Source: Candidatus Nanohaloarchaea archaeon
GTDB lineage: Archaea > Nanohalarchaeota > Nanosalinia > Nanosalinales > Nanosalinaceae
Assembly (NCBI GenBank): GCA_041640035.1
Contig: JBEQBC010000003.1
Coordinates: forward strand, 44,945-108,944
Direction of reading: 5' to 3'
DNA: 64,000 nucleotides
Positions 1 through 35,511 of the stretch are shown here, piece after piece (position 1 is the first letter of the stretch; every line of letters starts with the position of its first letter). The position numbers and the translations under genes are program-made. The notes under the pieces were generated by a model. The model was given only the letters and a program-made list of their open reading frames with translations, ran no database searches and had not been told where the DNA came from.

Positions 1-478
1 TGTACAGCTTGGAGTTAGGTATAATCACTTTTCTACCGTCGTAGGTTCTGATGTCAGTGGCTCTGATCCGGATGTCCTGAACTGTTCCTTCCTCGCCTCC
101 AGCTTCGATCTGATCACCGATCTTGAAAGGCCGACTGATCAGGATCATCACTCCGGAGATGAAGTTCGCGATCATATCCTGCATCGCGAAGGACAGACCC
201 AGGCCAAGCAGTCCGACAAGGGTGGCCAGCGAACCAAGCGGGACATTATATACGCCGAGCAAGGCTATCAGGGTCAGTCCGTATACCAGGAAGGATGAGA
301 GCTTCGAGGCTGTCTTGTAGACATGTTCGTCTACCTCGGTTCCTACGCTTCTCTTTATCACTCTTTTAACCAGTTTATTTCCTATGTAACCTGCTAGTAT
401 TATCGCTAAGGTAAGTGCAATAGTTTTTGGAGCTATATATTCTGTGATTAGAGAGGTTATCTGCGTAATACTTGTCAT
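1..478 (-). CDS. mscS: Small-conductance mechanosensitive channel, MscS family (runs off the window edge)
   Basis: Not in ORF track. Manual translation from ATG at 478 gives TM helices then GLSFAMQDMIANFISGVMILISRPFKIGDQI...GTVQDIRIRATDIRTYDGRKVIIPNS, the MscS signature region. Confidence 0.92.
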   Translation of the reverse strand, partial: MTSITQITSLITEYIAPKTIALTLAIILAGYIGNKLVKRVIKRSVGTEVDEHVYKTASKLSSFLVYGLTLIALLGVYNVPLGSLATLVGLLGLGLSFAMQDMIANFISGVMILISRPFKIGDQIEAGGEEGTVQDIRIRATDIRTYDGRKVIIPNSKLY

Positions 479-24647: not shown

Positions 24648-26711
24648 TTACTTAATCAAACTTCCTACATCCATCTCCTGATCTGTATCCAGAAGTGATA
24701 CATTTCCTTCTTCGTCTTCAGCTGCCAGCATCATACATTCACTGACTTCTCCACGCAGCTCTGCAGGCTCAAGGTTAGCCAGTACAACTACTTTCCGTCC
24801 CTCGAGTTCCTCTTTATTGTAGTGGTTCTTCAGTCCTGCACAGGTCTGCAAGGTGGTTCCGCCCACATCTACCTGTACTTTATACAGTTTATCTGCGTTC
24901 GGATGCTCTTCTACTTCAAGAACCTGACCTACACGGATATCCATGTCTCCGAACTCCTCAAAGCTGACGGTATCTGTGTTCAGCTCTGTTTCTTCCTCAA
25001 TCTCTTCTTCCTCCTGTTCTACATCGATCTTCTCGAACAGGATCTCTCTTTCACCTAGTTCTGAGCCACCTGCGATTCCGCCGATGAGCGCATCCGTGAA
25101 CTCGCTGTCACCTTCCTCTGTATGGATTTCGGTTTGAAGCATCTCCTGGATCTTCTCGGATGTATCCGGCGTGAAAGGATACATCGTGACGGCCAGTCCT
25201 CTGATTATCTGGATCGAGACCTGTATTACCGGTTCTCTTCTCTCCTCATTGTTCCATGGTTCTTCCTCGCTCAAGTAACGGTCTCCGAGCCGTGCGAGTT
25301 CAAGTGCTTTGTCCAGTGCTTCACGCAGTTCATGTCTCTCGAAAGCGTCCTGATAATCGTCGATTATGTCTTCTGCTTCGCTGATTATCTCTCTGTCCTC
25401 ATATTCGAGTTCTGCGGCCGGTACCTTATTGTCGAACCATTTCTCTGACAGGCTGAGAGTCCGGTTGACGAAGTTTCCGACTGTGTCGTTGAGTACATTA
25501 TTGATTGTGGATTCAAAGTCGTCCCATGAGAACTTGGTATCGTGATCCTCCGGAATGTTCTTCGCCAGATAGAAACGCCAGTAATCCGGTGGATGCATGT
25601 CCAGTGCATCCTCTGTACGCAGTCCTTTTCCACGGGATTTAGAGAACTTGGTATCCTCGGCCAAGAGGTACTGCTGAATGAACTCGTAATGCGGCAGTGC
25701 GTAGTCCTTCTCCTCTGTGGAGCTCCCAATCAGCATAGAAGGCCAGATAACTGTATGGAACACTGTGTTGTCCTTCCCGATGGAGTAGTACACATCCGCG
25801 TCACCGGTCCAGTAATCCGTCCACTCATCGTCATCCTCGAAAAGTTCACGGGTAAAGCCGATGTAACCAATCGGAGCATCAAACCAGACATACAAGACTT
25901 TATCGCTATAACGCTCCTGGTCCAATTTCTGGACCTCTACGCCTTCTTCTTCGATCCGTTCGTTTACTCTTTCTACTGGTATATCGAATCCCCAGTCTAT
26001 ATCACGGGTGATACAGCGGTCCTCAAGCTCATCTATAGTATTCATAACCTCTTTCTTGCTTGAGTCAGGGATCGGTTGTGGATCGGCGTCTTCCAGCCAG
26101 TCACGTAGTTCATCCTCGAACTGAGGTAAATCCAGGAAGAGATGTGTGGTTTCCTTGAACTCTACATCGTTTCCGCCACATATCTGGCATTCGATTTCGT
26201 CCAGTTCTTCCGGTTCAACCAGTTTTCCGCAGTCGTCGCACTGGTCTCCTCGGGCTAGTCCGCCGCAGTGCGGGCAGGTTCCTTCTATGTACCGGTCTGG
26301 TAGGAATCTTTCGTCGTTGTTGCAGTATGCTAGTGTTTGTTCTTTTTCTTTGATGTACCCGTTCAGGTACAGTTCTGTGAACATGTCGTGTGTCTGTTTC
26401 TTGTTGTATTCGCTGTGTGTCTCGGAGTAGATGTCGAAATCCATGTTGAAGTCGTTGAGTACTTTTTTGACTTTCTCATGGTTCTTCTCTTTCAGTTCTT
26501 CGACATCCATTCCCTGTTCAAGTGCTTCTAGCTCTAGAGGTGTACCGTGGACATCGCTTCCACATACGAACCGGTGGTCTGTGCCTTTCAGATCGTTGTA
26601 TCTGTTGAATATATCAGCTGGAAGCAGGCTTCCTACAATATTTCCTAGATGTGGTACTCCGTGGATATACGGTAGTGCAGAAGTAATCGTAACTTTTTGG
26701 TCGTCAGTAAT
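24648..26711 (-). CDS. metG: Methionyl-tRNA synthetase with C-terminal tRNA-binding domain; probable ATT start
   Basis: Frame continues upstream of the ORF-track ATG (26510) through TSALPYIHGVPHLGN and GSDVHG; zinc knuckles, YVWFDAPIGY, KFSKS, HPNADKL. Product is secure; start codon is inferred. Confidence 0.93.
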   Translation of the reverse strand: MTDDQKVTITSALPYIHGVPHLGNIVGSLLPADIFNRYNDLKGTDHRFVCGSDVHGTPLELEALEQGMDVEELKEKNHEKVKKVLNDFNMDFDIYSETHSEYNKKQTHDMFTELYLNGYIKEKEQTLAYCNNDERFLPDRYIEGTCPHCGGLARGDQCDDCGKLVEPEELDEIECQICGGNDVEFKETTHLFLDLPQFEDELRDWLEDADPQPIPDSSKKEVMNTIDELEDRCITRDIDWGFDIPVERVNERIEEEGVEVQKLDQERYSDKVLYVWFDAPIGYIGFTRELFEDDDEWTDYWTGDADVYYSIGKDNTVFHTVIWPSMLIGSSTEEKDYALPHYEFIQQYLLAEDTKFSKSRGKGLRTEDALDMHPPDYWRFYLAKNIPEDHDTKFSWDDFESTINNVLNDTVGNFVNRTLSLSEKWFDNKVPAAELEYEDREIISEAEDIIDDYQDAFERHELREALDKALELARLGDRYLSEEEPWNNEERREPVIQVSIQIIRGLAVTMYPFTPDTSEKIQEMLQTEIHTEEGDSEFTDALIGGIAGGSELGEREILFEKIDVEQEEEEIEEETELNTDTVSFEEFGDMDIRVGQVLEVEEHPNADKLYKVQVDVGGTTLQTCAGLKNHYNKEELEGRKVVVLANLEPAELRGEVSECMMLAAEDEEGNVSLLDTDQEMDVGSLIK

Positions 26712-26773
26712 TATTGGTACACCTCTACCACAGATTTCAAGTTCTGAAGCTTTAAAGTCTAATCCGCCGACCT

Positions 26774-27544
26774 TTAGACGATCCTGCGCTTCAAACGGTT
26801 CAGGTTTGACAACCCGAAATCAGGCTCCTCCATGCCCTCAAGGTCGGAAAGCTCATCGCGACTTAACTCTCCTGTCATGATGGCAGCGGTCTTCAGACCA
26901 AGCCGGTTACCTAGTTCGACATCAACCTTTCTGTCTCCTACAAGTAGTGTTTTCTCGTTGAAGTAGCTGAAGTACCTTTTGAAGTACCGTCTGAAAACAG
27001 GTGAAGGCTTACCGATATTCTGAGGCTCTGCGTACTCCGATAAAGCGTTGTTCACTGCTTTCTGGTGAGGCATAGCTTTTTTCGAAGTATGGAAAGTTCT
27101 TTCTGTACTGCAGACATACAGGTCGCCGCCTTCATCAAGTATATTGAAAGCTCTACGCAGTTTATCATAGTTGAACTGACGGTCAAAACCTACTACAACT
27201 GTATCAGCCTCATCACTTACACGGATATCCTCGTCCTCCAGTTCATCGATCAAACCGGATTCGCCGATCACATAAGCTTCGTTAACATCTTCTTCTGCTA
27301 GTTTCTGAGCTGCAACATAACCAGAGGTAATGACATCTTCTTTATCGGTATCTAGTCCCATAGAGGTCAGTTTCTCTGCGTATCCTTGTCTGGAAAGTCT
27401 TGTATTATCTGTAAAGTATTTTACATCGATATCGCTGCTTTTTAGGCTTTGAATCACTTCATCTGCTGGGAACACAAAGTCGTCCCAGTTCCAGACTGTC
27501 CTGTCCAGATCCAGAAAAACTGTTCTCAGTTCGTTGAAATCCAT
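26774..27544 (-). CDS. HAD-IIA hydrolase (NagD-like)
   Basis: DLDRT, TDN, GKPS, VGDRKVD. Confidence 0.88.
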   Translation of the reverse strand: MDFNELRTVFLDLDRTVWNWDDFVFPADEVIQSLKSSDIDVKYFTDNTRLSRQGYAEKLTSMGLDTDKEDVITSGYVAAQKLAEEDVNEAYVIGESGLIDELEDEDIRVSDEADTVVVGFDRQFNYDKLRRAFNILDEGGDLYVCSTERTFHTSKKAMPHQKAVNNALSEYAEPQNIGKPSPVFRRYFKRYFSYFNEKTLLVGDRKVDVELGNRLGLKTAAIMTGELSRDELSDLEGMEEPDFGLSNLNRLKRRIV

Positions 27545-27659
27545 GCATACAAATTGGAGGTGAAATCTAATAATGGTTGAGTTAGTCCGAATACATGGTA
27601 CAGCAGTCTAAAACCTTCAGCCTCTCTTTTATTTGAAGAAGAAGAATACTAAACCTGAG

Positions 27660-30182
27660 ATGAACTGCAAAAAAATCTTTGTTCTCATCTTACTAATCCT
27701 GATGTCCTCTCAAGTTATGGGTTACACTAACTGGGACGGCGGAGAGCCAAATGATGCAGGAGATGGAGAGGACTGCGCTGAGGCGAACTGGAACGGTGAC
27801 AGATGGAATGATATCGGCTGTAATGATGATCATCCAGGCATATGTGAGTATCAAGATGGTACATATGATACTACTTCTTCGATGGACTTCTCTGCGGCAC
27901 GTAATGAGTGCCAGTCTCGAGGAGGACATCTCGTAGTCATGAATAGTGCGAGCGAAAACGACTACATATACAATAATTTCGGTAACGGTTGGCTGGGCTA
28001 TTATCAGCCACCAGGTTCTTCAGAACCGGCCGGAGGCTGGACCTGGGTAGAAACTAACGAACCTCCTGTCATCAATCCGGATGGTAACACAGATAATGAT
28101 CCAAATCCGGCAGAGGTCACGGGAACCAGTCCCAGTAATGGTCCTAATCCTACTCTTTCAGTTGATGTTTCTGATCCTAACGATGAACCCTTAAATGTAG
28201 AGTTTTACCGTGACTCATCAAGCTGGAACACTGTTCTGTCTGAATCTTTCTCTGGTGGAACTTCCGGATGGTCCTCAGAGACAGGTAATCTAGAAACAAG
28301 AACCTCTTCAAATGGTGATCAGTGGCTAGCACCGCAATGCACCACCGCTGTACAGACTAACAGAATATCCGAAACAATAAATGATGGTGGAATGACTTAT
28401 GACCGTGTGAGATATGATGTTGAGGTAGGGGCTCTTGACAGTTGGGATAATGAGTATCTAAGATTGCAGTTGAAGACTGATGGCTCGTGGACCACGGTAG
28501 AGTCAAGAACGCCTCACTACGGTGGAAGCGAAGCCTTCCCCGATATGCAGTGTTATAATGATTTTGACAGTCCTGGAAGATACAGTTTCACTGGTGAGAT
28601 ATCTACAGACGATATATCGGGAGTTAGAGTGTTGACAGGCTTGAATCAGGATGACGATGATGAATCTGTCGCAATAAATAATGTGGATATCGAAGTCAGA
28701 AGAACTCAGACGCTTATAGGTACTGATGGATCTGTTGATGGAGCAGGAGATGTAGCAACTCAAGAATGGAACGGTTTAACATGTGGTGCATCATATGACT
28801 GGTTCGTTAAAGCTATAGAAGAAGATGGTGAAGCCTCCACCACCAGTAATGTCTGGAGCTTCGATGTAGACTGTAACGAGCCTCCTCAAATCTCAATTGT
28901 AGAGCCTGCCGAATCCACAGATACAGGCCTAGTAACTTCTACATCCCCTCAATTAAGGTTATCAGTCTCTGATCCAGACGACTCAAGTCTCGATGTAACA
29001 TTCTATGATAACGACGGAAATGTGATTGAAACGAAAAATGATGTATACTCTGATGTCAATGCAGAATGGACTGGTCTCACGAAGGGAAATCAATACTCGT
29101 GGTCTGCTGAAGTCTGTGATGACGGAGGCGAATGTGATACATCCTCCACAGCAACTTTCACAGTAAACACCCCTCCAGAGGAACCTGAGTCACCAAATCC
29201 GAGTGACGGTGTTGAGGGAATCGATCACAACTCAGTCACCCTCTCCTCATATGTTGAAGATCGGGACGGCGACAACATGCAAGTTACCTTCTCAGGAGAT
29301 TCTGGAACAGATTCTTTCTCGAAGTCTACTGATGTTTCAGGCTCTGGAACTGCTTCGGTTTCTGTCACCGGGCTTCAGCCAGGTACGCAGTATGACTGGG
29401 ATGTAACCGTGGAGGACGAACATGGAGCCTCCACAACAGGTGAAACTTGGAGCTTCACCACTAACTATTTGCCCGCTATAAGAAATCCTCAACCGCAGAA
29501 CGGAGGATTCATCAGTTCTGATTCTGTTGACCTCAGTGTTGATGTTTCGGACGATGATGGAGATATGACTAATGTCCGGATCTATGATGATTCCGGCGCT
29601 CAGATCGGAAGTGGTTCAACTTCTGACGGATCTGAGGTCACTGTTGATGCGGATTATACAGGGTTGACATATGGAGAGACCTATGATTGGACTGTTGAAG
29701 CAGAGGATGCTTACGGTACCAACTCGAAGACATTCAGTTTCAATGTGATAGGCGGTGGAAGCTTCCGGACTGAATCGGGTATAGACTACGAGTACAGTTC
29801 TGTGGTGAAGTCAGGCAGTCAGACACGATTCATCGAATACGAGGTCACGAACAGGAATGTGAATGATAAGGAACTGGAGACAGGTATTTCAGGTCCTGAA
29901 GCCTCTTTCTCTCAGTACTCTGGCGATACACATGCCTATACTTTGGGAGGTGGCGAGACGAAGACTTTCAGAATCCAGATTACGGAAAGCCAGCCAGGCG
30001 ACTATGATTTACAGGTTGTAACCGAGAACCAGGAGCTCGGTATTCAAAATGCAGATACTATACCGGTACTGGTTCGAGAATACCCGGCTTCCGGTGTTGA
30101 ACGGGTCCCGGGTATAGGGATGCTTCATGTCGTGATACTGATTGCCAGCGGCTTAGTGATAACTGTTTTCGGATCTGTGTAA
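27660..30182 (+). CDS. Large surface protein: permuted C-type lectin head, Ig/FN3-like repeats, C-terminal VPG-TM anchor
   Basis: Signal peptide; GEPND..EDC..WND..C..ICE and ARNEC..GGHLV..END..WLG segments; repeats with L.VDVSD.D...YDW.V.A; terminal VPGI plus TM. Confidence 0.8.
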   Translation: MNCKKIFVLILLILMSSQVMGYTNWDGGEPNDAGDGEDCAEANWNGDRWNDIGCNDDHPGICEYQDGTYDTTSSMDFSAARNECQSRGGHLVVMNSASENDYIYNNFGNGWLGYYQPPGSSEPAGGWTWVETNEPPVINPDGNTDNDPNPAEVTGTSPSNGPNPTLSVDVSDPNDEPLNVEFYRDSSSWNTVLSESFSGGTSGWSSETGNLETRTSSNGDQWLAPQCTTAVQTNRISETINDGGMTYDRVRYDVEVGALDSWDNEYLRLQLKTDGSWTTVESRTPHYGGSEAFPDMQCYNDFDSPGRYSFTGEISTDDISGVRVLTGLNQDDDDESVAINNVDIEVRRTQTLIGTDGSVDGAGDVATQEWNGLTCGASYDWFVKAIEEDGEASTTSNVWSFDVDCNEPPQISIVEPAESTDTGLVTSTSPQLRLSVSDPDDSSLDVTFYDNDGNVIETKNDVYSDVNAEWTGLTKGNQYSWSAEVCDDGGECDTSSTATFTVNTPPEEPESPNPSDGVEGIDHNSVTLSSYVEDRDGDNMQVTFSGDSGTDSFSKSTDVSGSGTASVSVTGLQPGTQYDWDVTVEDEHGASTTGETWSFTTNYLPAIRNPQPQNGGFISSDSVDLSVDVSDDDGDMTNVRIYDDSGAQIGSGSTSDGSEVTVDADYTGLTYGETYDWTVEAEDAYGTNSKTFSFNVIGGGSFRTESGIDYEYSSVVKSGSQTRFIEYEVTNRNVNDKELETGISGPEASFSQYSGDTHAYTLGGGETKTFRIQITESQPGDYDLQVVTENQELGIQNADTIPVLVREYPASGVERVPGIGMLHVVILIASGLVITVFGSV
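29165..30115 (+). repeat. Diverged duplication, copy 1 (stalk/anchor region; copy 2 at about 34498-35445)
   Basis: Near-identical protein blocks; identical 29-mer TACGAGTACAGTTCTGTGGTGAAGTCAGG at 29787-29815 and 35119-35147. Confidence 0.9.
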
Positions 30183-32184: not shown

Positions 32185-35100
32185 ATGCGGTTGAAACTAT
32201 CCGTTTACACCTTGATTTTTCTAGCACTTTTATCTGCCGCAGTATCTCATCCCAGCGGTGACACTGGTTCAAACGGTTACACTGTTTCAGACGATGCTAT
32301 TGAAAGCTCTGTAGATTTTACTGATCTTGAACAGGAATGGAAGTACACTCAGGAAATCAACATGCAGCAGAACTGGGACGGCAACCTGGCGTGGGAGGGA
32401 ACACACAAGGTCTTCTCAGTGCAGGTCAACACGAAGAAACTTATTGAGGAAGGTAAGATGAGGGAGGACTGCGCGGACCTCAGAATGTCCTGGAACGAGA
32501 AAATAGTGCCTTCCAGAGTCCAGGCAGGTGACTGCGGTTCAGAGGATACATGGGTATACTTTTCAAACGCCAGAGAAGACAGAGAAATGCTTTTCGACCC
32601 ACAGAAAGAAGTAGAATCGATTAAATTATACTACGGTAACTCCGATCCCGGCAGAAGACATGAATCCGTATCTCCCTCAAATGATAACCAAGCGACCTAT
32701 GTGCATCCTGAAGGTCCTATCGAGATGTACTACGGAACACATCAGACCACAACATATGTCAATGACGATACTGACATGACCAACGAAGGGGTTTCAGGAG
32801 GAGAAGGTTACCAGACCTGGGAAGTTGATTTCCAGAGCAGTAGCTATGGAGATCAACCACCAGACTTCATCAGCATATCAGACAACGACGGGAACCGTGC
32901 AACCGTGGATAGTCCTGGTGATTCGTACACTATAAACGGAAATGATTACAACTGGATAGATGAAGGAGAGCCAATATCTGTCTATTTCGAAGTGTGGGAT
33001 GTTGAATCCTCAACTGTTACGAATGACTGGCCTGTCACTAATAGGGCACCTAATCAGCCTAGTAATCCTGATCCTGCGGAGACCACAGGTACCTCTCCTG
33101 TCTACAGTACTTCTCCAATGCTCAATATAGATGTATCCGATCCTGACAGCTCGGATGATCTGAATGTTGATTTCTTCAGCGGGATTTCAGAGACATGGAA
33201 CTTCGGTACATGCGGCTCAACAGGAAGCAGCGGTCCTTCCCAGAGCCAGTGTGACTCATCTTATTCGGGAACTACTTTGGATGGACAGGTAAATATAGTG
33301 AATCCGGGTATTCAGGAATGGACAGTTCCTCGTGATGGAGTTTACAGGATAAGAGCAGCGGGTGCAGAAGGAGGCCTGGGAGATGGCGCAGTTATGCAAG
33401 GAAAATTCAACCTGAATCAAGGACAGACAATACAGATACTAGTAGGTCAGCAGGGATCAAATGACGGAGGATCTGGAGGCTCTTTCGTAGCAACCGGAGG
33501 CTCCCATACATCAGCTAATCCACTGGTTGTCGCTGGTGGAGGAGCTGGAGGAGATCAGAGCTACCAAAGCTACACAGATGGTTCAGACAGTACACCTGGC
33601 GAGGACTCCCAGAACTCAGGCGGAGGAAACAATGGATATGGTGGAGGTGCTGGTGACGGAGGAGGTGGAGGAGGCTTCTACGGTGACGGTGCTGACGGTA
33701 CAGCCGGTCCAGGAGGATTCGCCTTCAGAAACGGTGGCTCGGGAGCCACTAATGGAAATACCGCTGGTGGTTTCGGTGGTGGAGGAGCTACCGAAGACGG
33801 CGGTGACGAAGCCGGTGGAGCAGGTGGATACTCTGGTGGAGCCGGAGCAGACGATGGATCAAATAATGGAGAAAATGAGATAGCTGCTGGAGGAGGAAGC
33901 TTTATAGACTCCTCAGCTAATTCAGCAGCCACTCATACCGGCAGCTTTGGCGATAGCTCTACTAATGATAACGGTTACTCTGGAACAGTAGATGATCTCG
34001 GCGGTATGAATACTGGACAGGGATATGTAACTATTGAGGCAGAAGGCCGGCAGCTAGGAGAGGATAACAATGTTGGAAACGGTAACACAGCACAGTTCGA
34101 ATGGAGTGGTTTGACTGAAGGTCAGACATATGAGTGGTCAGCTAGAGCTTGTGACCCAAGTGGGCTGTGCACTACATCTCCTTCCTACAGTTTTGATGTG
34201 AGTGAGGGTCCTCGTCAACCTGATAATCCTGATCCTGCGGATGGAGATACTGTGTATGCTCCTTCCGGTGATGTGAGTCTTTCAGCCAGGTACAGACATA
34301 CAGGCGGTACTTCAGGAGAGCCTGGAACATTAACTTTCTACAATCAAGATGGTTCTCAGATCGGTAGCTGCCAGGCAGATCACAACGAAAGATGTTCCGT
34401 TAATAAGAATGTGAATAATGGCCAGAGGTATGACTGGTATGTGGTAGCGGAGTATAATGGTCAGACAGCAACTAGCTCCGACTGGTACTTTAGAACAAAT
34501 ACCCCTCCAGATCAGCCTAATAATCCATCACCTACGGATGGGGCTTCCTCTGTTGATTACAACAGTGTAACTCTGACAGCTGATGTAAATGATGCTGACG
34601 GGGATGATATGGATGTTACATTCAGTGGTAGTTCGCCATCCGATTCTTTCAGTGAGACGACAACTGTGTCCGGAAGCGGTGAAGCACAGGTAACTGTAAA
34701 CAATCTAGCTGAAGGAGAATCCTATGACTGGACTGCTGAAGCGGAGGATGTGTACGGTGCGACTACGACCAGTGACACATGGATTTTCACTACTAATTAT
34801 CTTCCTACGATCGATAATCCGGAACCTCAGGATGGTGCGTACTTGAGTTCGGATGAGACTGAACTGAATATTGATGTCTCGGACTTTGACGGCGATATGA
34901 CCAATGTCCGTATTTACGATGAATCAGGTGCTCAGATCGGAAGCGGATCAACATCTGACGGATCAGAAGTTACAGTGGATGCAGATTATACAGGACTAAG
35001 TTACGGTAATACCTATGATTGGACGGTTGAGGCCGAGGATGCATACGGTACTAATTCTCGTACCTTCAGTTTCAGCGTGATAGGAGGAGCAAGTTTCAGA

Positions 35101-35511
35101 ACTACATCTGGAATTGATTACGAGTACAGTTCTGTGGTGAAGTCAGGTGGCCAGACACGGTTCATTGAGTACGAGGTTTCAAACAATAATGTTGGGGATA
35201 AACAGTTGGAGACCCGGCTTTCCGGTGTCGACGCAACATTTTCCCAGTATTCCGGTGATACACATACTTACACGTTGAACGGTGGTACCACCGAGACATT
35301 TAGAATCGGTATTGAAGAAGATCAGATCGGTGAGCATGAACTTAGTGTTACTACTGAGGATTTAGAATTAGGTGTTGAGAACACTGATACTATTCCTGTG
35401 CTTGTTAGAGAGTATCCTGCGTCCGGTGTAGAAAGGGTTCCTGGATTGATGTGGGTCCAGGTACTGTTCCTTGTAGCCGGAGCTACAGTTCTTTATTCTG
35501 CTTTACTCTGA
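32185..35511 (+). CDS. Large surface protein: DUF2341-like domain, ALK/LTK-like glycine-rich domain, Ig/FN3-like repeats, VPG-TM anchor
   Basis: Signal peptide; DCADLR..LYYGN; FGTCGSTG..GPSQSQC..GIQEWTVP..ILVGQQG..GGFGGGG..GGYSGG; C-terminal part paralogous to 27660-30182. Confidence 0.8.
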   Translation: MRLKLSVYTLIFLALLSAAVSHPSGDTGSNGYTVSDDAIESSVDFTDLEQEWKYTQEINMQQNWDGNLAWEGTHKVFSVQVNTKKLIEEGKMREDCADLRMSWNEKIVPSRVQAGDCGSEDTWVYFSNAREDREMLFDPQKEVESIKLYYGNSDPGRRHESVSPSNDNQATYVHPEGPIEMYYGTHQTTTYVNDDTDMTNEGVSGGEGYQTWEVDFQSSSYGDQPPDFISISDNDGNRATVDSPGDSYTINGNDYNWIDEGEPISVYFEVWDVESSTVTNDWPVTNRAPNQPSNPDPAETTGTSPVYSTSPMLNIDVSDPDSSDDLNVDFFSGISETWNFGTCGSTGSSGPSQSQCDSSYSGTTLDGQVNIVNPGIQEWTVPRDGVYRIRAAGAEGGLGDGAVMQGKFNLNQGQTIQILVGQQGSNDGGSGGSFVATGGSHTSANPLVVAGGGAGGDQSYQSYTDGSDSTPGEDSQNSGGGNNGYGGGAGDGGGGGGFYGDGADGTAGPGGFAFRNGGSGATNGNTAGGFGGGGATEDGGDEAGGAGGYSGGAGADDGSNNGENEIAAGGGSFIDSSANSAATHTGSFGDSSTNDNGYSGTVDDLGGMNTGQGYVTIEAEGRQLGEDNNVGNGNTAQFEWSGLTEGQTYEWSARACDPSGLCTTSPSYSFDVSEGPRQPDNPDPADGDTVYAPSGDVSLSARYRHTGGTSGEPGTLTFYNQDGSQIGSCQADHNERCSVNKNVNNGQRYDWYVVAEYNGQTATSSDWYFRTNTPPDQPNNPSPTDGASSVDYNSVTLTADVNDADGDDMDVTFSGSSPSDSFSETTTVSGSGEAQVTVNNLAEGESYDWTAEAEDVYGATTTSDTWIFTTNYLPTIDNPEPQDGAYLSSDETELNIDVSDFDGDMTNVRIYDESGAQIGSGSTSDGSEVTVDADYTGLSYGNTYDWTVEAEDAYGTNSRTFSFSVIGGASFRTTSGIDYEYSSVVKSGGQTRFIEYEVSNNNVGDKQLETRLSGVDATFSQYSGDTHTYTLNGGTTETFRIGIEEDQIGEHELSVTTEDLELGVENTDTIPVLVREYPASGVERVPGLMWVQVLFLVAGATVLYSALL
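34498..35445 (+). repeat. Diverged duplication, copy 2
   Basis: Paralogous to about 29165-30115; many differences are at synonymous positions. Confidence 0.9.

What the first reader, a model, noticed from the sequence alone, without database searches (positions are those of the whole stretch)
27723..28050. Circularly permuted C-type lectin domain with EPN/WND motifs at the tip of a surface protein
Seen: after the signal peptide comes YTNWDGGEPND..EDCAE..WNDIGC..GICE, and only then FSAARNEC..GGHLVVMNSASENDYI..WLG..WTWV. Established: in canonical C-type lectin domains the A...C...GHL...EN...WIG...W.W half precedes the NW..EPN..C..WND..C..CE half, the termini lie close together, and EPN plus WND binds Ca2+ and mannose/glucose/GlcNAc-type sugars. 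Inference: a natural circular permutant that keeps all four core cysteines, and a candidate adhesin for host S-layer glycans.
Basis: partly seen in the sequence, partly recalled or inferred. Interest (0 to 1): 0.8.

Follow-up and report, generated by a model that had tools for sequence, protein, structure and literature searches.

The report
Circularly permuted C-type lectin domain
A surface protein of a tiny salt-loving archaeon that lives on other archaea starts with a well-known sugar-binding module (C-type lectin) whose two halves are wired in swapped order, a conserved natural rearrangement of this fold that I could not find described in print.

Summary
Gene 27633..30182 (+, 849 aa) encodes a signal peptide followed by a Lectin_C domain. 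Its halves are in swapped order: aa 31-72 match Pfam profile positions 68-106, and aa ~83-142 match positions 2-61. Each half alone passes Pfam's cut-off.

It is not an assembly artefact. Contigs from other sequencing runs are collinear, with no joints. The same C-then-N module occurs in 20 distinct proteins or ORFs at 34-98% identity, in 4 of 70 genomes of the class. A 98% relative lies in a Nanohaloarchaea MAG.

The domain is under purifying selection, dN/dS 0.045. It keeps all four core cysteines and the EPN, Glu and WND calcium/sugar ligands. AlphaFold2 folds it as one compact domain, pLDDT 82 and pTM 0.78. All 50 listed structural matches are C-type lectins, but each aligns only to the N-half. 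A permutation-aware superposition could not be run.

The permuted units form one clade, sister to a canonical nanohaloarchaeal domain. Tandem C-N-C-N forms suggest an origin by duplication and trimming.

Sugar binding and a host-adhesin role remain inferred. Six literature searches found no report.

The parts
27633..30182 (+). Whole gene: 849-aa surface protein (TTG at 27633; the ATG at 27660 is the likelier start, since the 839-aa relative P0152 is 10 residues shorter and the permuted unit begins at residue 19 there against 28 here)
27660..27722 (+). Signal peptide MNCKKIFVLILLILMSSQVMG (read from the sequence; no predictor was run)
   Evidence: relatives have the same layout
27723..27848 (+). 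C-half of the C-type lectin domain (aa 31-72): long-loop region with EPN (27744-27752), Glu46, WND (27804-27812), Cys48, Cys63, Cys71; predicted strands beta3, beta4, beta5
   Evidence: Pfam profile 68-106, E 4.2e-08; PDB alignments; AF2 secondary structure; residue conservation
27849..27860 (+). New 4-residue connection YQDG that joins the old C-terminus (beta5) to the old N-terminus (beta1) as a hairpin
   Evidence: the gap between the halves is 2-6 residues in the single-unit relatives
27861..28049 (+). N-half of the C-type lectin domain (aa 77-139): beta1, alpha1 (Cys93), alpha2, beta2 (WLG), W-T-W
   Evidence: Pfam profile 2-61, E 1.2e-06; VIA-align: all 50 listed rows are C-type lectin domains aligned to model 47-50..111-118, rmsd 1.4-3.2 A over 57-68 residues
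28050..28160 (+). Pro/Asn/Asp-rich linker leaving the domain at the new C-terminus
   Evidence: pLDDT below 50 for model residues 115-122
28161..30104 (+). Stalk of Ig/FN3-like repeats (Pfam Big_13 aa 432-513, Ig_Rha78A_N/fn3 aa 548-612, Big_10 aa 633-704, weak CARDB aa 764-800). The first repeat appears interrupted by a ~170-aa insert (aa ~200-370) with no family hit
   Evidence: the ESM Atlas gives only leads (FN3, Cleaved_Adhesin, MAM; scores 0.83-0.88)
30105..30179 (+). C-terminal VPGIG + hydrophobic helix (membrane anchor, PGF-CTERM-like in shape only)
   Evidence: similar C-termini in P0010, P0018, P0037, P0045; no PGF-CTERM model hit; no archaeosortase TIGR04125 found in G000, 89% complete

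Best explanation
The gene encodes a cell-surface protein of a nanohaloarchaeon. Its membrane-distal head is a genuine circular permutant of a canonical, animal-type C-type lectin carbohydrate-recognition domain. The chain starts in the long-loop region (Y-x-N-W, EPN, Glu, WND) and runs through beta3-beta4-beta5. It then turns through a 4-residue hairpin directly into beta1, continues through alpha1, alpha2 and beta2, and leaves the domain after W-x-W. The halves pack within one chain into a single domain. The Cys71-Cys93 pair (the canonical C4-C1 disulfide) ties beta5 to alpha1, and Cys48-Cys63 corresponds to C2-C3. All of Ca2+ site II lies in the first half and is intact. The most likely activity is therefore Ca2+-dependent binding of sugars with equatorial 3- and 4-OH groups (mannose, glucose, GlcNAc, fucose type). 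The domain is displayed on an Ig/FN3-like stalk for attachment to glycans of the haloarchaeal host surface or of polysaccharides. The form probably arose once in Nanohaloarchaeota from a resident canonical domain, by tandem duplication followed by loss of the outer half-domains, and then spread as a module with the new boundaries. Shown here: swapped order, conservation, purifying selection, module mobility, and a confident single-domain prediction. Inferred: disulfide pairing, Ca2+ and sugar binding, the ligand, and the host-adhesion role. My odds: real permutant 0.97; folds as one lectin domain 0.85; binds sugar through Ca2+ 0.55; target is host S-layer or envelope glycan 0.35.
For: - **Swapped order.** Each half passes the Pfam cut-off on its own, and PDB sequence alignments agree.
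- **Independent assemblies.** A 4226-nt contig of a run from another study spans all of 27400-28400 collinearly, with 75 substitutions, no indel and no joint. Zero-difference contigs of run X1 bridge both domain boundaries and the half-junction.
- **Relatives.**
  - A 98% relative lies in a second genome of the genus. The record title of locus L012 names it a Candidatus Nanohaloarchaea MAG.
  - A 51% relative lies at the syntenic position, next to the same HAD gene, in a single-contig genome of another genus (L005).
  - Full-length matches to the permuted profile occur in 4 of 70 genomes of the class.
  - An exhaustive HMMER search of 1.84 billion representatives plus a word-index search gave further members.
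- **Order test.** Half-by-half phmmer on 162 sequences found 21 with C first and N last. Of these, 19 are the short-linker type; adding P0095 gives 16 single units and 4 tandem C-N-C-N proteins.
- **Module positions.** The module has the same boundaries after a signal peptide, inside proteins at about residues 320-450, near the C-terminus of proteins over 2000 aa, and inside an 8891-aa open frame.
- **Conservation in 19 aligned units.** C1 and C4 19/19. C2 and C3 17/19, lost together in the same two units. W of WND 19/19, N 18/19, D 19/19. E of EPN 17/19, P 19/19, N 16/19. Glu46 18/19. W of WIG 19/19.
- **Ligand spacing.** The distance from EPN-Glu to the next ligand Glu is +8, as in bovine mincle E168/E176 (figure legend read in PMC7618208).
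- **Selection.** dN/dS against L012 is 0.045 in the domain, with 15 synonymous and 3 non-synonymous differences. Of 26 listed differences to the run X3 contig within 27723-28080, 21 fall on third codon positions (counted by hand from table 3).
- **AlphaFold2 on the 19-row alignment.** pLDDT 82.2, pTM 0.78. Element order is beta3, beta4, beta5, beta1, alpha1, beta1', alpha2, beta2.
- **Structure search.** VIA-align against 48,161 chains: all 50 listed rows are C-type lectin-like domains, matching model residues 47-50..111-118 to the N-terminal half of the target (Z 3.7-4.9). Foldseek aligns 33 columns to the CD23 lectin domain at rmsd 1.7-1.8 A.
- **Phylogeny.** A tree of concatenated half-alignments puts the 21 permuted-type units in one clade (support 0.80-0.88). 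The canonical nanohaloarchaeal domain of G003 is sister to it (0.80).
Against: - **No whole-domain structural match.** Foldseek found nothing at E <= 0.001, and the best VIA Z is only 4.9. This is expected for sequential aligners on a permutant, but the mutual packing of the halves rests on the AlphaFold2 model alone. That model came from only 19 related rows.
- **No coordinates.** No model coordinates were available for a permutation-aware alignment.
- **Tandem fold failed.** The fold meant to show which halves pair gave pLDDT 48 and says nothing.
- **Ligand drift.** The ligand motif changes in some members (EPS in L005, VPD in P0043, QPD/WHD in L010), so specificity, or binding itself, is not uniform.
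- **Patchy distribution.** The permuted form was found in 4 of 70 class genomes searched, which argues against an essential role.
- **No expression data.** No RNA run was listed, and there is no biochemical datum.
- **Tree support is moderate.** The canonical units in the tree were a chosen subset.
Confidence: 0.7

Rival explanations
1. The two halves do not pair within one chain. The C-half of one molecule pairs with the N-half of another (a domain-swapped dimer or chain), so the permuted wiring serves oligomerisation of the surface protein.
For: Some C-type-lectin-fold families swap segments (the PASS2 outlier table lists 'segment swapping' for the C-type lectin-like superfamily; passage read in PMC3779223). 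Tandem C-N-C-N relatives exist, in which alternative pairings are geometrically possible.
Against: beta5 and beta1 are neighbouring antiparallel strands in the canonical fold (PMC7618208). A 4-residue turn therefore suffices for pairing within the chain. AlphaFold2 predicts exactly that hairpin, with pLDDT 91-96 across it and pTM 0.78 for the monomer.
Confidence: 0.07
2. It is a properly folded permuted C-type-lectin-like domain, but it is not a Ca2+-dependent host-glycan adhesin. It might bind free polysaccharide (chitin, glycogen-like or exopolysaccharide), the cell's own envelope, or a protein ligand.
For: Many C-type-lectin-like domains bind non-sugar ligands (PMC7618208, passages read). 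A cultured nanohaloarchaeon-host pair is organised around polysaccharide use (abstract and passages of PMC7443923). The sugar motif varies among family members. The distribution is patchy, 4 of 70 genomes.
Against: All five Ca2+ site II ligands are present here with canonical spacing and are kept in 16-19 of 19 units. Domains that have given up sugar binding usually lose them (PMC7618208: group V domains lack the Ca2+ motifs).
Confidence: 0.2
3. It is an artefact: a mis-assembly, or the decaying remnant of two adjacent canonical domains with no function.
For: The same C-then-N order arises trivially at the junction of tandem canonical domains. Most of the 150 best database hits are such multi-domain proteins.
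Against: The signal peptide directly precedes the C-half and a linker follows the N-half. The layout is collinear in contigs of other runs and in other genomes. dN/dS is 0.045. The link between halves is 2-6 residues, against the longer, gapped alignments of tandem canonical proteins.
Confidence: 0.02

Closest known systems
Canonical Ca2+-dependent C-type lectin carbohydrate-recognition domains (Pfam PF00059; SP-D, mannose-binding proteins, langerin, mincle, CLEC10A)
   Same: Sequence motifs of both halves, four core cysteines, WIG(L), EPN + Glu + WND with the same spacing. The C-half aligns with SP-D (chain 4m17_A) at 40.1 bits. The predicted secondary-structure elements are the same.
   Different: Order of the halves. 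[quoted passage not shown] The old termini are joined by a 4-residue hairpin. The stalk therefore leaves the domain near the loop region, not from the lower lobe where canonical termini meet (PMC7618208, on the 'loop-out' orientation). The organism is an archaeon.
Canonical-order C-type lectin domain in a nanohaloarchaeal surface protein (G003, locus L007)
   Same: Same organism group, same kind of Ig-rich surface protein, EPN and WND present. It is 43% (C-half) and 37% (N-half) identical to the window's halves and is sister to the permuted clade.
   Different: Normal N-then-C order with the extra N-terminal cysteine pair of 'long-form' domains.
Tandem C-N-C-N relatives (G043 locus L006, P0015, P0017, P0095)
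   Same: Start with a C-half right after the signal peptide and end with an N-half. Same motifs; they fall in the same clade.
   Different: Two units. This layout is what the duplication-then-trimming route to a circular permutant predicts as an intermediate. Which halves pair is unknown, because the fold failed.
FGE-sulfatase-type C-type-lectin-fold variable proteins of diversity-generating retroelements in DPANN archaea
   Same: C-type-lectin superfold on surface proteins of nanohaloarchaea, thought to mediate host contact (PMC7443923, passages read).
   Different: A different family with no EPN/WND Ca2+ site. Here there is no Pfam hit to that family, and I did not look for a retroelement.
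Known lectin or CBM circular permutants (concanavalin A versus other legume lectins, recalled; Ca2+-dependent carbohydrate-binding modules, Montanier et al. 2010, seen only as a reference-list entry in PMC4444583)
   Same: A sugar-binding domain whose halves are swapped while fold and site are kept.
   Different: Unrelated beta-sandwich folds. In concanavalin A the swap is post-translational (recalled).

Membership tests
C-type lectin domain (Pfam PF00059 Lectin_C) | Significant match to the family profile | tested here: met
   55.2 bits against a cut-off of 22.6. The halves alone score 34.3 and 29.6 bits.
C-type lectin domain (Pfam PF00059 Lectin_C) | Collinear order beta1-alpha1-alpha2-beta2 then long loop-beta3-beta4-beta5 | tested here: not met
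   Profile 68-106 comes before profile 2-61. The order is the same in 20 proteins or ORFs. It is a permuted variant, not a standard member.
C-type lectin domain (Pfam PF00059 Lectin_C) | Four core cysteines (C1-C4, C2-C3) | tested here: met
   Cys93, Cys48, Cys63 and Cys71 are present. C1 and C4 are kept in 19/19 units; C2 and C3 in 17/19, lost as a pair. The bonding itself was not testable.
C-type lectin domain (Pfam PF00059 Lectin_C) | Ca2+ site II ligands: EPN/QPD, Glu, WND | tested here: met
   E38-P39-N40, E46, W58-N59-D60. Spacing is as in mincle.
C-type lectin domain (Pfam PF00059 Lectin_C) | Whole-domain double-loop alpha/beta fold | tested here: inconclusive
   The AlphaFold2 model is compact, pTM 0.78. 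The N-half superposes on 50 of 50 listed lectin domains at rmsd 1.4-3.2 A. A 33-column stretch aligns to the CD23 lectin domain at rmsd 1.7-1.8 A. No permutation-aware superposition was possible.
C-type lectin domain (Pfam PF00059 Lectin_C) | Ca2+-dependent carbohydrate binding | not testable with these tools
   Needs protein and a glycan array with and without EDTA.
PGF-CTERM / archaeosortase A substrates | PGF-CTERM model hit and an archaeosortase in the genome | tested here: not met
   No such NCBIfam hit at E <= 1. TIGR04125 was not found in G000, which is 89% complete; the control genomes rang.

The most novel reading that the evidence does not exclude
The permutation is adaptive rather than neutral. 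Moving the chain exit from the lower lobe to the edge of the long-loop region turns the Ca2+/sugar site relative to the stalk and leaves a free N-terminus beside it. This would create a new presentation geometry that nanohaloarchaea use, singly, in tandem, or embedded in giant SPEARE-like proteins, as a host-recognition determinant. EPN, QPD and other variants would then tune which haloarchaeal surface glycans, and hence which hosts, are bound. It would be the first natural circular permutant of the canonical C-type lectin domain and a handle on host specificity in a DPANN symbiosis.
Probability: 0.25. Interest if true: 0.8.

Novelty: new variant of a known kind. Interest (0 to 1): 0.6.

Why it matters
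The C-type lectin domain is one of the most studied sugar-binding folds. Its adjacent termini are thought to fix a common 'loop-out' orientation relative to the membrane (PMC7618208).

A conserved natural permutant shows that the fold tolerates re-wiring at the beta2/long-loop junction. It offers a natural test of how chain topology affects folding and presentation of the Ca2+ site. It also explains why standard annotation reports two partial Lectin_C hits.

Biologically, it marks a small set of nanohaloarchaeal surface proteins, some of them giant, as candidate glycan-recognising host-contact proteins. These can be tested with a ~115-residue fragment.

Two earlier notes of this scan (e1-2719401, e1-2719711) describe the same module in other genomes. 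Within the scan this is therefore a further member rather than a first sighting.

Tried and rejected
- **Tandem fold.** AlphaFold2 on the C-N-C-N relative (L006 aa 19-253, 3-row alignment A2) was meant to show which halves pair. It gave pLDDT 48.1 and pTM 0.39, too poor to use, and I ran no fold search on it.
- **Homodimer test.** Two copies of the domain with alignment A1: score 0.00, verdict 'no answer'. This is neither for nor against binding.
- **Foldseek against PDB.** No match at E <= 0.001, only partial lectin alignments.
- **VIA-align wide.** Z is below 5 for all rows because only one half aligns.
- **Model coordinates.** None are laid in the script box, so I could not do my own non-sequential alignment.
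- **The search for related loci.** The single protein then gave one true relative and two weak bacterial partial hits.
- **RNA evidence.** No RNA holder was listed among 9 runs.
- **Anchor.** No PGF-CTERM hit and no archaeosortase found.
- **ESM Atlas for aa 150-430.** Scores of 0.83-0.88 are leads only (FN3, Cleaved_Adhesin, MAM).
- **Earlier findings.** Look-ups by place and by sequence returned nothing.
- **Literature.** None of these searches returned a permuted or an archaeal EPN-type C-type lectin:
  - 'circular permutation' + 'C-type lectin': 8 papers. I read passages in 3 and saw only the listing for the rest.
  - 'circularly permuted' + 'CTLD': 0 papers.
  - 'circularly permuted' + 'C-type lectin': 15 papers, listing only.
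  - 'permuted' + 'C-type lectin-like': 15 papers, listing only.
  - 'C-type lectin' + 'archaea' + 'EPN': 8 papers, listing only.
  - 'Nanohaloarchaeota' + 'lectin': 17 papers, passages read in 2.
  - Subscription-journal reviews of the fold (for example Zelensky and Gready 2005, recalled) are not in the library, and supplements were closed.
Full report
**What is there**

The + strand ORF 27633..30182 encodes 849 residues. The likelier start is the ATG at 27660. After a signal-peptide-like segment (MNCKKIFVLILLILMSSQVMG) the mature protein opens with YTNWDGGEPNDAGDGEDCAE...WNDIGC...GICE. A four-residue link (YQDG) follows, then TYDTTSSMDFSAARNEC..GGHLVVMNSASENDYI..WLG..WTWV.

Pfam Lectin_C hits the protein at 55.2 bits (cut-off 22.6) in two stretches. 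Scanned separately, aa 31-74 match profile positions 68-106 (E 4.2e-08) and aa 75-149 match positions 2-61 (E 1.2e-06). phmmer against PDB sequences gives the same picture. The last 43-45 residues of SP-D and mannose-binding proteins align to the start of the domain. The first ~68 residues of CLEC10A align to its second part. The swap is not a chance resemblance.

**The rest of the protein and its setting**

A Pro/Asn/Asp-rich linker follows the lectin unit. Then come Ig/FN3-like repeats (Big_13, Ig_Rha78A_N/fn3, Big_10, weak CARDB) and a C-terminal VPGIG-plus-hydrophobic-helix anchor. The anchor has no PGF-CTERM model hit, and no archaeosortase was found in the 89%-complete genome.

Neighbouring genes are housekeeping: MetRS, a HAD hydrolase and a methyltransferase. 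Another large Ig-domain protein lies at 32185..35511.

The genome is 0.98 Mb in 24 contigs. The proteins in the window are rich in acidic residues. A 98% relative of the domain lies in a record titled as a Candidatus Nanohaloarchaea MAG (L012). The runs that hold the stretch are mostly hypersaline-lake metagenomes.

**Not an artefact**

- A 4226-nt contig from a run of a different study spans 27400-28400 in one collinear piece. It has 75 substitutions, no indels and no joints.
- Zero-difference contigs of run X1 bridge the signal-peptide/C-half boundary, the half-junction and the N-half/linker boundary.
- The same arrangement is present in a second genome of the genus (98% identity).
- It is also present at the syntenic position, next to the same HAD gene, in a single-contig genome of another genus (51% identity, L005).
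- It occurs inside an 8891-aa open frame of that same genome (L010, with QPD and WHD in place of EPN and WND).
- It occurs twice in tandem in a genome of another family (L006).

**How widespread**

With the 19-row profile, full-length permuted matches occur in 4 of 70 genomes of the class. These belong to 3 genera and 2 families. A fifth genome (G003) carries a canonical-order domain that matches as two pieces in reversed profile order.

An exhaustive HMMER search of 1.84 billion representatives gave 4493 hits at E <= 0.001. Most of the best 150 are multi-domain proteins with many canonical units, in which the query aligns across domain junctions. I sorted these out by searching the window's two halves separately against 162 sequences (156 stored proteins and 6 locus ORFs):

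- 21 sequences begin with a C-half and end with an N-half.
- Two of these (P0052, P0134) are long multi-unit proteins with incomplete detection.
- The other 19, plus P0095, are the short-linker type.
- That makes 16 single units and 4 tandem C-N-C-N proteins.

In every case with a complete N-terminus, the C-half directly follows the signal peptide or another domain, and the N-half is followed by a linker or another domain. The module sits at N-termini, internally at about residues 320-450, near the C-terminus of proteins over 2000 aa, and inside a giant protein. It thus behaves as a mobile domain with the permuted boundaries.

**Is it one working domain?**

In the 19 aligned units (A1) conservation is as follows:

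- The cysteines that in canonical domains tie alpha1 to beta5 (C1, C4) are invariant.
- C2 and C3 are kept in 17 units and lost together in the same two.
- The W and D of WND, the P of EPN and the W of WIG are invariant.
- The E and N of EPN, Glu46 and the N of WND are kept in 16-18 units.

The Glu-to-Glu spacing (+8) equals that of the mincle Ca2+ site II ligands E168/E176 (figure legend in PMC7618208).

Against the 98% relative, the domain has 15 synonymous and 3 non-synonymous differences, dN/dS 0.045. The next 191 codons give 0.098. Of 26 listed differences to the run X3 contig within the domain, 21 fall on third codon positions (hand count).

AlphaFold2 on A1 gives one compact domain: mean pLDDT 82.2, pTM 0.78, and block means of 88-96 for model residues 31-100. 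The elements run in the order beta3, beta4, beta5, hairpin, beta1, alpha1, beta1', alpha2, beta2. This is the canonical set started at a different point. The new connection is a beta5-beta1 hairpin, which fits because these strands are antiparallel neighbours in the canonical fold (PMC7618208).

Sequential structure aligners behave as expected for a permutant:

- Foldseek finds nothing at E <= 0.001. It aligns 33 columns to the CD23 lectin domain at rmsd 1.7-1.8 A.
- VIA-align against 48,161 chains lists 50 rows, all C-type-lectin-like domains. All match model residues 47-50..111-118 to the first half of the target, with rmsd 1.4-3.2 A over 57-68 residues and Z 3.7-4.9.

I could not superpose both halves at once, because no coordinates are available. 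That is the main gap.

**Origin**

I built a tree of separately aligned and then concatenated halves. It held 21 permuted-type units, 44 canonical units and 3 canonical nanohaloarchaeal units. The 44 canonical units are what remained of 45 chosen as the best unit per protein, from 105 units that passed a 75% coverage filter; the 45th, from P0095, proved to be permuted-type and is counted among the 21. The permuted units form one clade (SH-like support 0.88 without the nanohaloarchaeal canonical units, 0.80 with them). The canonical domain of G003 is its sister (0.80).

Together with the C-N-C-N proteins, this fits the classical route: tandem duplication of a resident canonical domain, then loss of the outer halves. 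Support is moderate, and the alignment has only about 160 columns.

**Function**

Established knowledge on the fold (passages read in PMC7618208):

- EPN with WND and a further Glu coordinates Ca2+ at site II and binds mannose-, glucose- and fucose-type sugars.
- QPD switches this to galactose-type sugars.
- Domains without these motifs do not bind sugar in this way.

All of these residues are present here. I therefore favour Ca2+-dependent sugar binding by a membrane-distal head on an Ig-like stalk.

Reports on cultured nanohaloarchaea propose lectin-like and Ig-fold surface proteins as host-attachment factors (passages read in PMC7443923, and 10.1101/2023.02.24.529834). They do not mention this domain. 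The link to host S-layer glycans is thus inference.

One consequence of the permutation deserves a test. The stalk now leaves the domain beside the long-loop region instead of from the lower lobe, so the sugar site should be oriented differently from the 'loop-out' geometry of canonical receptors.

**Comparison and novelty**

It works like, and descends from, canonical C-type lectin CRDs, but it fails their collinear topology. I file it as a permuted variant of that family.

Six literature searches gave no report of a permuted C-type lectin domain or of an archaeal EPN-type one. The library lacks most subscription reviews, and supplements were closed.

Two earlier notes of this scan describe the same module in other nanohaloarchaeal genomes (e1-2719401, e1-2719711). 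I re-tested their main claims here, and my results agree.

**Verdict**

Single-domain folding is predicted with good confidence but was not verified by a permutation-aware comparison. The ligand and the biological role are inferred.

Noticed in passing
window 24648-26819 (- strand): The MetRS ORF called from its first ATG (26510) starts at Pfam profile position 62 of tRNA-synt_1g. The frame is open upstream to 26819 and encodes the HIGH-type motif (..HGVPHLGN..). No ATG, GTG or TTG lies in that upstream part, so the gene probably uses a non-standard start codon and overlaps the 3' end of the HAD gene.
   Followed up: partly
window 28230-28740 (aa ~200-370 of the same protein): The first FN3-like repeat (PTLSVDVSDPNDEPLNVEFY ... 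GLTCGASYDWFVKAIEEDG..WSFDV) seems interrupted by a ~170-residue insert with no Pfam or NCBIfam hit. The ESM Atlas gives only leads (Cleaved_Adhesin or MAM-type beta-sandwich with FN3, scores 0.83-0.88).
   Followed up: partly
window 30105-30179; also the C-termini of P0010, P0018, P0037, P0045 and the L008 ORF: Shared C-terminal (V/A)PG(I/L/V)(G/x) + hydrophobic helix. It resembles a PGF-CTERM sorting signal, yet there is no model hit and no archaeosortase A was found in this 89%-complete genome. It may be a lineage-specific anchor or sorting signal.
   Followed up: partly
L010 (G020:C1:269799-273122, - strand): A permuted unit with QPD and WHD that lacks the C2/C3 cysteines. It sits inside an 8891-aa open frame (a giant surface protein) of a single-contig nanohaloarchaeal genome.
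   Followed up: partly
P0037, P0045, P0153, P0154, P0156 (about 1030-1060 aa): In these proteins the permuted lectin unit lies between copies of a repeated ~150-residue domain (..GF.PDY.EF..AQQI.S.N...). That repeat also occurs in P0018 and I did not identify it.
   Followed up: no
window 32185-35511 (+): A second large (1108-aa) Ig-domain (Big_10) protein lies 2 kb downstream, probably another surface protein.
   Followed up: no
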